The notes: a model not told the origin generated them from the sequence alone. A DNA stretch of 17,094 bases from an uncultured bacterium (GCA_937898165.1 CALDKO010000018.1:1-17094); one strand, 5' to 3'. Positions 5,274 through 8,226 are shown, counted from the first letter of the stretch. Program-made: numbers and translations.

Positions 5274-5501
5274 ATGCAAATTATTATTCGAGTTCGAGCC
5301 TTCCCTGACGCAAAAAAGGAGCATATTGAAGAGACTGAGCCTCATATTCTGCGGATTTTTGTTCGGGAACCAGCAAAAGATAACCGTGCCAACCGAAAAA
5401 TATTAGATTTGGTCGCTGATTTCTATACTATACCCAGAAATAAACTCCGTATGATCTCTGGTCATCATAGAATGAGTAAAATGATAGAAGTATTACACTA
5501 A
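5274..5501 (+). CDS. DUF167 / YggU (UPF0235) family protein
   Basis: 75-aa ORF aligning with E. coli YggU: ...IFVREPAKDNRANRKILDLVADFYTIPRNKLRMISGHHRMSKMIEVL matches the V.V.A.P.dG.AN..L...L......V....V.I..G..s..K.I.I pattern. Confidence 0.75.
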   Translation: MQIIIRVRAFPDAKKEHIEETEPHILRIFVREPAKDNRANRKILDLVADFYTIPRNKLRMISGHHRMSKMIEVLH

Positions 5502-5526
5502 AAAAGCCTCTAGTAGGCTTTTTTAG
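5502..5526. terminator. Bidirectional intrinsic terminator between convergent genes
   Basis: A5-AAGCCT-ctagt-AGGCTT-T6, located between the stops at 5501 (+) and 5530 (-). Confidence 0.65.
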
Positions 5527-5529
5527 TTC

Positions 5530-6282
5530 TTATTTAAAATATTCAAGTTTTGCAATACTCTTAATTTCTGAAAATGGAACTATTACCACCGGCTCACCCT
5601 CTACATAGGGTGCTACCTGGTACGCCCCAAATAAAATTACCAAGTTCCCATTCTCATTAATATACCAATGGTTCCAATTTTCTGGATTAGTATCAGCCCC
5701 TTCCTTGAAAAAGGCATCACCATACTGTTTACTGAGAATTCCTGAAGCATAGCCTGATAACACTGCTAAATACTCTGGTGTTGAAACACTGAACACATCG
5801 GCTAATGTAAGTAGTGTTCCTTTGTTGTCTACAGGAATGGTAAATATAAAAGGTGTAGGGTGTGCTCCACCGGTAAATTGAGATCCATGAAACACGGTTG
5901 TTGAACCATTTGGTGATTTTTTTATCTCATACGTAATAGTTAAAAATCCTTTATTTCCGTTTGTAAACATTTCCTTTAACACAGGATCTTCCGGAGTAAA
6001 TGATTTTACAAACTCATCATGTGCGTCATCGATATATTTTTTAATTTCTGTATCAATAACAGTATTATTGTAATAAGGATAACGAATTGAAATCTCGTAT
6101 AAATTTCCTGTTTCTGTTATTTCTTTATCAACAGGTTCTAGGGCAACAATTTGATCAGCTGGTGGTGCAACAGGCACTGGCGTAACCGCTAATTTATTAC
6201 GAATTACTAACCAACCAAAAACCCCAACCAAAATAAGGATTACAACAGCACTGATAGTTTTTTTATTAGATGGATTTTTCAT
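5530..6282 (-). CDS. Membrane-anchored DUF4163 + DUF3298 (RsiV/PdaC-type extracytoplasmic domain) protein
   Basis: 250-aa ORF with an N-terminal TM segment (ISAVVILILVGVFGWLVI). It has a DUF4163-like start (YEISIRYPYYNNTVIDTEIKKYIDD), a central FTGGAHP motif, and a C-terminal VILFGAYQVAPYVEGEPVVIVPFSEI, which mirrors the yev-AP-y..G...v.iP end of DUF3298 seen in RsiV and PdaC. Confidence 0.7.
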   Translation of the reverse strand: MKNPSNKKTISAVVILILVGVFGWLVIRNKLAVTPVPVAPPADQIVALEPVDKEITETGNLYEISIRYPYYNNTVIDTEIKKYIDDAHDEFVKSFTPEDPVLKEMFTNGNKGFLTITYEIKKSPNGSTTVFHGSQFTGGAHPTPFIFTIPVDNKGTLLTLADVFSVSTPEYLAVLSGYASGILSKQYGDAFFKEGADTNPENWNHWYINENGNLVILFGAYQVAPYVEGEPVVIVPFSEIKSIAKLEYFK

Positions 6283-6290
6283 ATATTGTT

Positions 6291-6333
6291 AGTATACCAA
6301 AAAATCCCTTAATAAGGGATTTTTTGGTATACT
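6291..6333. promoter_or_regulatory. 43-bp perfect palindrome (21-bp arms, 1-nt centre) immediately upstream of the DUF3298 gene start
   Basis: AGTATACCAAAAAATCCCTTA-a-TAAGGGATTTTTTGGTATACT with no mismatch. It lies between the stop of the upstream gene (6343) and the ATG at 6282, with only 8 nt between the palindrome and the ATG. As a 21-bp stem it would occlude the RBS region in the RNA. Confidence 0.6.
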
Positions 6334-6342
6334 ATTAAAAGA

Positions 6343-7113
6343 TTATTGAGCCTTTGGAAAAGCTAATTTTAATTTGTCCTGAGCTGCAGTCATAGCAGTT
6401 TTGAAATCACTGATAGCTTTATCAATAGCTGTTTTTCGTGTTGCAATAGCTGCATCAACATCAGCTTTTTTTGTAATAAGATCTTTTACTGCTTTAAATG
6501 CATCTTTTGCTGCTTTTATATCAGCATCAAAAGCTGCTTTTACGGTAGCTGAATCAGTTCCGGCTGTACAACTTGTTTTTGCTTTGTTGATAGCAGTAAT
6601 TCGTGCAGTATTAAATTCTGCCACAGCTGTGTCAACTTTAGATTTTTGAGTATCTGTTAATCCATCAACCGCTCCTCGGAAATCACGGATTGCAGCATCA
6701 ATAGCAGTACGACGTGCATTGATTGCTGCTGTCACAGAAGCTTTAAATTCTGTAACTGCTGCTTTTTGTACATCAGTAGTTGCTTTTGTATCAAGAGTCG
6801 CAAATCGTGTATCATGACGAGTATCTGCCTGACCTCGATGATTAGCTATTTGAGCATCTCGATCTGATCGATGACCTGCTTTTTCTGTTGCACGATCATT
6901 TCGACGAGTTTGTAGTTGTTGTAATTTTTGATTAACTTTTGTATCTAAATCTGTTGATCGTCGATCAATCATCACACAAAACTGAGAACCATCGCCTTTT
7001 AATCCTTTTGTAAGATCAACTTTATCAAGTCGAGCTGCAAAAGAGATTTGTGGAGCACTAATCACTACCAATAATACCAATGTTCCAATTTTCAAATATG
7101 TTTTTTTGTTCAT
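6343..7113 (-). CDS. Secreted alanine/threonine/lysine-rich protein with internal approximately 35-aa tandem repeats
   Basis: 256-aa ORF with a signal peptide (LKIGTLVLLVVISAPQISFAA). It is followed by a charged RSDRD segment and at least three repeats of the form F+xxVTAAINARRTAIDAAIRDF / FNTARITAINKAKT / IATRKTAIDKAISDFKTAMTAAQ. Coiled-coil/helical-repeat character; GC-richer than its neighbours. Confidence 0.6.
   Translation of the reverse strand: MNKKTYLKIGTLVLLVVISAPQISFAARLDKVDLTKGLKGDGSQFCVMIDRRSTDLDTKVNQKLQQLQTRRNDRATEKAGHRSDRDAQIANHRGQADTRHDTRFATLDTKATTDVQKAAVTEFKASVTAAINARRTAIDAAIRDFRGAVDGLTDTQKSKVDTAVAEFNTARITAINKAKTSCTAGTDSATVKAAFDADIKAAKDAFKAVKDLITKKADVDAAIATRKTAIDKAISDFKTAMTAAQDKLKLAFPKAQ
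6400..6760 (-). repeat. Imperfect in-frame tandem repeats (about 100-140 nt units) inside the secreted protein gene
   Basis: Recurring DNA blocks atcaatagctgtttttcgtgttgcaatagctgc (6421-), gttgatagcagtaattcgtgcagtatt (6588-) and atcaatagcagtacgacgtgcattgattgctgc (6700-) encode the repeated TAIDxAI motif. Confidence 0.5.
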
Positions 7114-7131
7114 ATAATAAGTATTTTATAA

Positions 7132-7614
7132 TTAACTAGTAATATCATCTAATAAAGCACTGTCATCTGTAGTGGTCGCCTCTGCGGCAAATTCTTGTTG
7201 GATCAATAGATCTTCTTGGTTTAAATCAGCAACAATATCTGCTGCAATATCTACTGAAACTGATCCATTTGCCGCTTGTGTAATAGTATTTCCTGCTGTA
7301 ACGGTTGAAGGAGTTGTTTCTGTGAAAGTAACATCAGATAAAGGTTGTGGTTGATTTTTTACATACCCATGACGAATCGTAGGTATAATAACAATAATAG
7401 CCAATAATGCGACTGAACCTGCAAGGATTAATTTATTTTTTGACATAAGAATGAATATTCCAAAGGGTGATAATGTTCCCTTCTGGTGTGTATTACGATC
7501 TAATAATGGATTTGTGACACTCTCGATTATACCATGAAACTCTGCGCGCGAAGGAACCGCAATGGTTGATTGTTCGTCCTTGAATAGTTGTTCAATTGTT
7601 TTATTAATTTTCAT
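7132..7614 (-). CDS. Single-pass membrane protein; candidate anti-sigma factor
   Basis: 160-aa ORF whose start overlaps the sigma-factor gene by 11 nt. It has an approximately 70-aa cytoplasmic N-terminus, one TM segment (LILAGSVALLAIIVIIPTI) and an acidic extracytoplasmic tail, with no Zn-finger anti-sigma motif. The assignment rests on position and topology only. Confidence 0.5.
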   Translation of the reverse strand: MKINKTIEQLFKDEQSTIAVPSRAEFHGIIESVTNPLLDRNTHQKGTLSPFGIFILMSKNKLILAGSVALLAIIVIIPTIRHGYVKNQPQPLSDVTFTETTPSTVTAGNTITQAANGSVSVDIAADIVADLNQEDLLIQQEFAAEATTTDDSALLDDITS

Positions 7615-8158
7615 ATGGATTGTGTTGTTTATGTAAGACTCTCATCGCGCGTGATACGGTCTGCCGAAGCGCTTCTTCGTTTTTTCCTGTAATAGCAGCA
7701 ATTTCAGGATATTCTAATTCCTGTAAATACCGCAACGTAACAATTTCACGCTGTGATTCTGGTAATGTACTCAGTATTTTTTGTATAAAATCTTTTTCAT
7801 CATATACAATAGTGTTTTGTTCTGGATCAAGCAATGAATCATCGGGGGTTTTTTCAATAAAATGTTCAAACGCATCAAAACTTATTGTATGTTTTTTACG
7901 CAAGTAATCAATGGTTTGATTACGGGCAATGGTATACAAATATTGTAATGCCTCATCTTTTCTGATCTGATCCCTATTATTAAATGCCTTGAGAAAAACT
8001 GTCTGTATAATATCCATGGTCGTTTCTTTGTCTCTAATCCTATAAAAAATGTATTTATACAGCGGTGTAAAAAATTCTGTATAGAGCACCTCAAAAGAAT
8101 CCTGGTTTTGTTTTGCATCAGGAATAACGTAATGAAAGCTTAAAAGATCTTCTTTCAT
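7604..8158 (-). CDS. ECF-type RNA polymerase sigma-70 family factor
   Basis: Region 2 (DIIQTVFLKAFNNRDQIRKDEALQYLYTIARNQTIDYLRK) and region 4 (LPESQREIVTLRYLQELEYPEIAAITGKNEEALRQTVSRAMRVL) are both recognisable. Start placed at the internal Met (MKEDLL..., 8158) because the ORF-track start at 8206 lies inside the upstream terminator hairpin; this gives a 185-aa ECF-sized product. Confidence 0.85.
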   Translation of the reverse strand: MKEDLLSFHYVIPDAKQNQDSFEVLYTEFFTPLYKYIFYRIRDKETTMDIIQTVFLKAFNNRDQIRKDEALQYLYTIARNQTIDYLRKKHTISFDAFEHFIEKTPDDSLLDPEQNTIVYDEKDFIQKILSTLPESQREIVTLRYLQELEYPEIAAITGKNEEALRQTVSRAMRVLHKQHNPYEN

Positions 8159-8194
8159 AATGGTATTACGTAGTATACCCCAAATCTGTGACAA

Positions 8195-8226
8195 ACAAAA
8201 AACCACCAGATTACTGGTGGTTTATT
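8195..8226 (-). terminator. Rho-independent terminator of the UVR-domain gene
   Basis: AAACCACCAG-atta-CTGGTGGTTT (10-bp stem), followed on the minus strand by TTTTTTTGTTTG. Confidence 0.7.

What the first reader, a model, noticed from the sequence alone, without database searches (positions are those of the whole stretch)
5530..8226. Split SigV/RsiV-like envelope-stress module: ECF sigma, TM anti-sigma candidate, secreted repeat protein, separate DUF4163/DUF3298 receptor-domain protein
In the Bacillus and Clostridioides SigV system, the anti-sigma RsiV carries the DUF4163/DUF3298 ectodomain that directly binds lysozyme and triggers regulated proteolysis. Here the same ectodomain type is encoded as a stand-alone membrane-anchored protein (5530-6282), two genes downstream of an ECF sigma (7604-8158). 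The sigma overlaps by 11 nt with a 160-aa single-pass membrane protein (7132-7614) that has no recognisable anti-sigma domain. A secreted Ala-rich helical repeat protein (6343-7113) lies between them. All four genes are same-strand and bounded by terminators at 8195-8226 and 5502-5526. A sensor architecture with the ligand-binding module on a different polypeptide from the sigma-binding module has not, to my knowledge, been described for this family.
Basis: partly seen in the sequence, partly recalled or inferred. Interest (0 to 1): 0.75.

Follow-up and report, generated by a model that had tools for sequence, protein, structure and literature searches.

The report
Three-gene ECF sigma operon; DUF3298 neighbour
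The sigma factor, its small membrane partner and a secreted helical protein form a conserved three-gene stress-signalling operon in a lineage of ultra-small (Patescibacteria) bacteria, while the RsiV-like DUF3298 protein next door is a separately transcribed, lineage-specific neighbour and not a detached lysozyme receptor.

Summary
All four ORFs, both Pfam assignments (DUF3298 45.2 bits, DUF4163/PdaC 36.3 bits, Sigma70_r2/r4_2) and both outer terminators are real. The headline reading, a split SigV/RsiV sensor, is not supported. (1) A strong terminator hairpin (6290-6334, dG -28.9) separates gene 3 from the DUF3298 gene. A terminator follows gene 3 in every lineage examined. (2) Three more diverged lineages keep sigma, anti-sigma candidate and Ala-rich protein but have no DUF3298 gene in the sampled DNA. 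(3) DUF3298 homologues elsewhere have no sigma neighbour. (4) The DUF3298 protein is closer to MPT64/3CYG than to RsiV and lacks RsiV's S169 loop. (5) The sigma is not a SigV equivalog. (6) None of 35 detectable relatives of the 160-aa protein carries a DUF3298 ectodomain. What is conserved is a three-gene unit with two copies of an ECF-type motif, GTCACA-N15/16-CGTAAT. One lies upstream of sigma; the other lies inside the anti-sigma gene and is codon-invariant. In distant Patescibacteria the basic Ala-rich helical protein is always paired with a sigma-less small TM protein with an acidic tail. I infer it is the anti-sigma's extracytoplasmic partner. Overall: a new variant of a known kind, of modest interest.

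The parts
8190..8223 (-). Intrinsic terminator of the upstream 176-aa gene; upstream boundary of the module
   Evidence: 10-bp stem, 5 GC pairs, T-run; dG -17.6, z -3.7. Present in clade A loci.
8165..8192 (-). P1: ECF-type promoter motif GTCACA-N16-CGTAAT with an overlapping TATACT box, 6 nt before the sigma ATG. This implies a leaderless or near-leaderless sigma mRNA (inferred).
   Evidence: Invariant in an alignment of 6 lineages from both clades. Present in L020 as well. The pattern is expected 0.23 times per window by chance and is found 3 times.
7604..8158 (-). ECF (group 4) sigma-70 factor, 184 aa
   Evidence: Sigma70_r2, Sigma70_r4_2. (TIGR02937 84.2 bits against 42.9; best named models are the BldN family at 97 bits, below cut-off, and SigV at 60.6 against 190). 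(closest solved structures 6dxo, sigma-E 1or7, SigW 5wuq).
7132..7614 (-). Anti-sigma candidate, 160 aa: cytoplasmic N-domain (about 1-56, motif VPSRxEF...VTx5RN), TM segment (about 62-78, nearly invariant), acidic extracytoplasmic tail (about 80-160, net -12, pI 4.1)
   Evidence: a family of short proteins, 117-175 aa. An 8-11-nt overlap with sigma in most lineages, but a 6-nt gap in L020. Charges. No Pfam, NCBIfam or PDB match.
7477..7518 (-). P2: second GTCACA-N15-CGTAAT motif, inside the anti-sigma gene (codons V33-T34...R40-N41), followed by invariant CAGAAGGGA (codons Q44-K45-G46)
   Evidence: Present in every lineage. Codon-invariant at 6 of 6 aa-invariant positions here against 3 of 16 elsewhere in the gene. 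GTC is only 7% of Val codons in the window.
6343..7113 (-). Secreted basic Ala-rich helical-bundle protein, 256 aa (signal peptide ...SFA/A; mature net +12, pI 9.7; invariant C46 and C182); conserved third gene
   Evidence: AF2 mean pLDDT 84.9 with helices 42-110, 114-183, 188-212, 216-251. Only generic helical-bundle fold matches. It sits immediately downstream of an anti-sigma-family or tail-only gene in all lineages.
6290..6334 (-). Intrinsic-terminator-like hairpin (A6-TCCCTT-loop-AAGGGA-T6 core within a 21-bp stem); proposed end of the three-gene operon
   Evidence: dG -28.9, z -9.3. Equivalent hairpins with different stem sequences directly follow the Ala-rich gene in L009, L015, L005, L008 and L020.
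6291..6299 (-). TGGTATACT, an extended -10-like box 8 nt before the DUF3298 ATG; putative separate housekeeping-type promoter (inferred)
   Evidence: TGGTATACT in the window and L009, TGTTATAAT in L015. No GTCAC...CGTA motif is present here.
5530..6282 (-). Membrane-anchored DUF4163/DUF3298 protein, 250 aa; an adjacent, clade-specific neighbour and not part of the conserved module
   Evidence: AF2 mean pLDDT 86.5. Fold hits 5jen, 3cyg, 4e72, 3s5t, 2hhi. Profile ranking MPT64 and 3cyg ahead of RsiV. Present only in clade A.
5497..5527 (.). Bidirectional terminator shared by the DUF3298 gene and the convergent DUF167 gene (5274-5501, +)
   Evidence: (dG -16.4, z -4.8).

Best explanation
The functional unit is a three-gene operon: ECF sigma, single-pass anti-sigma and secreted Ala-rich helical protein (6343-8192). 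It occurs in a Paceibacteria-type Patescibacteria lineage. SHOWN: the three genes keep their order and tight spacing across lineages down to 37% anti-sigma identity. A terminator hairpin follows gene 3 in every lineage. Each lineage has exactly two copies of GTCACA-N15/16-CGTAAT, one 6 nt upstream of the sigma start and one inside the anti-sigma gene under DNA-level constraint. In more distant genomes without an adjacent sigma, the Ala-rich protein is still paired with an overlapping upstream gene. That gene encodes only the TM segment plus acidic tail and is homologous to the tail of the 160-aa protein. Charges are complementary throughout (tail -10 to -16; helical protein +9 to +16). INFERRED: the roughly 56-aa N-domain of the 160-aa protein holds the sigma at the membrane. 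Its acidic tail binds the basic helical bundle outside the cell, much as RseB sits on RseA or CnrX on CnrY. Loss or titration of that partner exposes the anti-sigma to proteolysis. The freed sigma then transcribes the operon from P1 and, from P2, mainly the Ala-rich gene, which restores the complex as a homeostatic loop. The DUF4163/DUF3298 gene, together with the convergent DUF167 gene, sits between this operon and the glucosaminidase-like gene in one sub-clade only (an insertion there or a loss elsewhere). It appears to have its own extended -10 promoter. It is an MPT64/3CYG-type envelope protein, not a component of the sensor.
For: Synteny: and the HMM table. Terminators. Promoter motifs. 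Codon-level constraint: (6 of 6 against 3 of 16; my hypergeometric estimate is p about 0.001). The N-domain is present where a sigma is adjacent (clade A, clade B, L020) and absent where none is (L021-L023). Tail homology: hhalign E 1.7e-4, reciprocal HMM hits E 1e-6 to 7e-4, and a shared C-terminal YENxI-type ending. Charge complementarity. DUF3298 is not RsiV-specific: and PMC5014341 (MPT64 does not bind lysozyme). No fused relatives.
Against: The anti-sigma N-domain matches no known anti-sigma domain, so its role rests on position, coupling, topology and co-occurrence with sigma. hhalign probability for the tail homology is only 49.5%. V33, T34 and R40 are also conserved as amino acids in remote family members, so part of the P2 conservation is protein-level. 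Terminator efficiency is unknown, so read-through into the DUF3298 gene in clade A cannot be excluded. Only about 6 independent lineages with sigma and 3 without were sampled. Clade-B genomes could encode DUF3298 elsewhere.
Confidence: 0.6

Rival explanations
1. One reading: in clade A the stand-alone DUF4163/DUF3298 protein is a trans-acting receptor, for lysozyme or another muramidase. It signals to the 160-aa anti-sigma, giving a split RsiV-like sensor.
For: Same-strand adjacency is kept across clade A down to 57% anti-sigma identity. The NCBIfam RsiV model aligns to the TM segment plus ectodomain, positions 45-279 of 286. RsiV 5jen is the top Foldseek hit. A glucosaminidase-like gene is nearby.
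Against: A conserved terminator lies between genes 3 and 4. The gene has no ECF motif but does have its own -10-like box. It is absent from the sampled DNA in three diverged lineages that keep the rest of the module. Homologues elsewhere lack sigma neighbours. The RsiV model scores 32.6 bits against a cut-off of 250. Profile similarity is higher to MPT64 and 3cyg, and MPT64 does not bind lysozyme (PMC5014341). The S169 loop is replaced by the family-wide TGGAHP motif. The sigma is not SigV/ECF30.
Confidence: 0.08
2. The Ala-rich protein is only the main output of the regulon, a surface or envelope-coating helical protein anchored by the acidic tail. It is not a sensing partner. The anti-sigma is released by some other cue, for example direct membrane or TM-segment perturbation.
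For: The internal promoter P2 would boost the Ala-rich gene specifically. The protein pairs with a tail-only anchor in genomes that have no sigma. Its fold resembles apolipoprotein-, BAR- or phasin-like surface-binding bundles. The TM segment of the anti-sigma is almost invariant.
Against: Nothing here separates output from co-sensor, and the two roles are compatible: RsiV itself is both sensor and regulon member (PMC5014341).
Confidence: 0.22
3. The 160-aa protein is not an anti-sigma but simply a co-transcribed membrane anchor. The sigma is controlled at the transcriptional level only.
For: There is no recognisable anti-sigma domain. Tail-only homologues work without any sigma.
Against: The extra cytoplasmic N-domain is seen only where a sigma gene is immediately upstream. 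The genes overlap by 8-11 nt in most lineages. The N-domain motif is strongly conserved across 30 or more family representatives.
Confidence: 0.1

Closest known systems
SigV-RsiV lysozyme-sensing system (ECF30; Bacillus subtilis, Clostridioides difficile, Enterococcus faecalis)
   Same: An ECF sigma followed by a single-pass anti-sigma with a short cytoplasmic N-domain. A DUF4163/DUF3298-fold protein is encoded nearby, and RsiV 5jen is a top fold match to it.
   Different: In RsiV the DUF4163/DUF3298 ectodomain is fused to the anti-sigma, and the system is almost confined to Firmicutes (PMC5014341). Here the sigma fails the SigV model (60.6 against 190 bits) and the DUF3298 protein fails the RsiV model (32.6 against 250 bits). 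The S169 contact loop is absent. The DUF3298 gene is neither co-transcribed nor conserved with the module.
RpoE-RseA-RseB of E. coli (established knowledge; no homology found here)
   Same: The gene order is sigma, single-pass anti-sigma, secreted protein. In the model proposed here, that secreted protein binds the anti-sigma's extracytoplasmic part and modulates its proteolysis. The sigma is distantly similar to sigma-E (1or7, E 8e-10).
   Different: The Ala-rich protein is an all-helical basic bundle, unlike RseB, and no sequence or fold relation was found. The anti-sigma is far shorter than RseA and has an unstructured acidic tail. The interaction is inferred, not shown.
CnrH-CnrY-CnrX of Cupriavidus metallidurans (established knowledge)
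   Same: A very short anti-sigma whose signal input comes from a separate helical extracytoplasmic sensor protein encoded in the same operon. This shows that a sensor on a different polypeptide from the sigma-binding module is already a known design.
   Different: The gene order differs and CnrX is a membrane-anchored metal sensor. No sequence similarity was detected.
BldN-RsbN of Streptomyces (best-scoring named sigma model TIGR02952; closest solved sigma 6dxo)
   Same: The closest named sigma family (97 bits; 6dxo E 2.9e-13). From memory, RsbN is a single-pass anti-sigma with a non-canonical sigma-binding domain.
   Different: The score is below the equivalog cut-off (206). The anti-sigma shows no detectable similarity to any PDB chain.
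Stand-alone DUF4163/DUF3298 proteins: MPT64 (2HHI), Fervidobacterium 3CYG, PA4972 (4E72), BF2082 (3S5T)
   Same: The window protein 5530-6282 shares their fold, their stand-alone architecture and the TGGAH(P/G) motif. Profile E-values are 3e-20 and 5e-20.
   Different: The window protein has an N-terminal TM anchor rather than a cleaved signal peptide or lipobox. The function of this family is unknown.

Membership tests
SigV/RsiV (ECF30) system | The sigma is a SigV-type (ECF30) sigma | tested here: not met
   NCBIfam SigV equivalog NF053879 scores 60.6 bits against a cut-off of 190; several other ECF models score higher (BldN family 97 bits). ECF30 is almost exclusive to Firmicutes (PMC5014341), and this is a Patescibacteria lineage.
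SigV/RsiV (ECF30) system | The anti-sigma carries the DUF4163/DUF3298 ectodomain on the same polypeptide | tested here: not met
   The 160-aa protein has no such domain. Of 35 family representatives among 1.84 billion proteins, the genuine family members are 117-175 aa; the two long hits (3071 and 414 aa) match only a short stretch of the tail in multiple stretches, and the 414-aa one is a tandem repeat.
SigV/RsiV (ECF30) system | The DUF3298 protein is an RsiV equivalog | tested here: not met
   NF052658 RsiV scores 32.6 bits against a cut-off of 250. The alignment covers model positions 45-279 only, so the sigma-binding N-terminus is missing.
SigV/RsiV (ECF30) system | Lysozyme-contact residues S169, P259, Y261 (PMC5014341) | tested here: not met
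   In the alignment to 5jen, S169 aligns to P142 within the TGGAHP motif. P259 aligns to P225, which is conserved in most family members (not MPT64). Y261 aligns to V227. The same motif occurs in MPT64, which does not bind lysozyme.
SigV/RsiV (ECF30) system | Sigma, anti-sigma and receptor are co-transcribed and co-conserved | tested here: not met
   There is a terminator between genes 3 and 4. DUF3298 is absent in L005, L008, L016, L020, L026 and L027.
SigV/RsiV (ECF30) system | Binds C-type lysozyme | not testable with these tools
   This needs a pull-down assay or a multimer model.
DUF4163/DUF3298 (PdaC-N / MPT64-like) fold family | Both Pfam domains score above the gathering cut-off | tested here: met
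   PF11738 scores 45.2 against 24.1; PF13739 scores 36.3 against 29.1.
DUF4163/DUF3298 (PdaC-N / MPT64-like) fold family | Two-domain fold matching solved members | tested here: met
   AF2 mean pLDDT 86.5. Foldseek gives 5jen, 3cyg, 4e72, 3s5t and 2hhi, all with probability 1.00 and E from 1e-11 to 1e-7.
ECF (group 4) sigma-70 factors | Regions 2 and 4 only, about 180 aa, and matching the ECF superfamily model | tested here: met
   Sigma70_r2 plus Sigma70_r4_2. TIGR02937 scores 84.2 against 42.9.
ECF sigma / membrane anti-sigma pair | The anti-sigma gene is immediately downstream and translationally coupled | tested here: met
   The genes overlap by 8-11 nt in the window, L005, L008, L009 and L015; there is a 6-nt gap in L020.
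ECF sigma / membrane anti-sigma pair | A recognisable anti-sigma domain (zf-HC2/ASD-I, RskA, CnrY-type and others) | tested here: not met
   No Pfam or NCBIfam hit at E<=0.1. The profile search against PDB gave no hit at E<=10.
ECF sigma / membrane anti-sigma pair | The N-domain binds the sigma | not testable with these tools
ECF sigma / membrane anti-sigma pair | An autoregulatory ECF-type promoter upstream of the sigma gene | tested here: inconclusive
   The conserved GTCACA-N15/16-CGTAAT motif is at the right place in 7 lineages, but sigma dependence is untested.
RseB / CnrX-type accessory extracytoplasmic partner | Homology to RseB or CnrX | tested here: not met

The most novel reading that the evidence does not exclude
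A pre-existing two-protein surface complex of Patescibacteria has been co-opted as the sensor of an ECF sigma. The complex is a small TM protein whose acidic tail holds a basic, disulfide-stapled helical bundle. Co-option happened by grafting a roughly 56-aa sigma-binding domain of a previously undescribed anti-sigma class onto the anchor. A second sigma-dependent promoter, written into the codons of that same domain, lets the sigma replenish the secreted partner without making more anti-sigma N-domain.
Probability: 0.3. Interest if true: 0.55.

Novelty: new variant of a known kind. Interest (0 to 1): 0.35.

Why it matters
It removes an attractive but unsupported claim of a split lysozyme receptor. 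In its place it leaves a concrete, testable signalling module in Patescibacteria, organisms with very few described regulators and no genetics. The module comprises an uncharacterised anti-sigma family, a conserved secreted partner family and a defined promoter motif present in two copies per locus. This gives a compact sigma/promoter/anti-sigma set that could be tested in a heterologous host. The sigma-less anchor-plus-helical-protein pairs show how an ECF sensor may be assembled from an existing envelope complex. The case also shows that adjacency of a DUF3298 protein to an ECF sigma is not evidence for RsiV-like function.

Tried and rejected
(3) The afdb50 fold library was unavailable. (4) A metagenome scan with the broad family alignment A8 failed because it had no conserved stretch. 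The tighter alignment A9 used a poor pattern and returned only 4 loci. The genome-contig scan found only 4 species. The lineage sample is therefore small. (5) The profile of the anti-sigma family against PDB gave no hit. PHROGs gave nothing meaningful and Rfam gave no hit in the window. (6) The Tako8 hits in the PDB search are artefacts of summed weak matches to a designed repeat protein. (7) An internal translation start at M57, which would give a tail-only isoform from P2, was considered and rejected: the Met is not conserved (L020 has Ile) and the spacing from the GA-rich box is too long. (8) A gene-fission origin from a fused RsiV-like ancestor was rejected because no relative of either half has the fused architecture. 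(9) Literature searches for ECF sigmas in Patescibacteria and for ECF contexts of DUF4163 found nothing beyond the RsiV papers.

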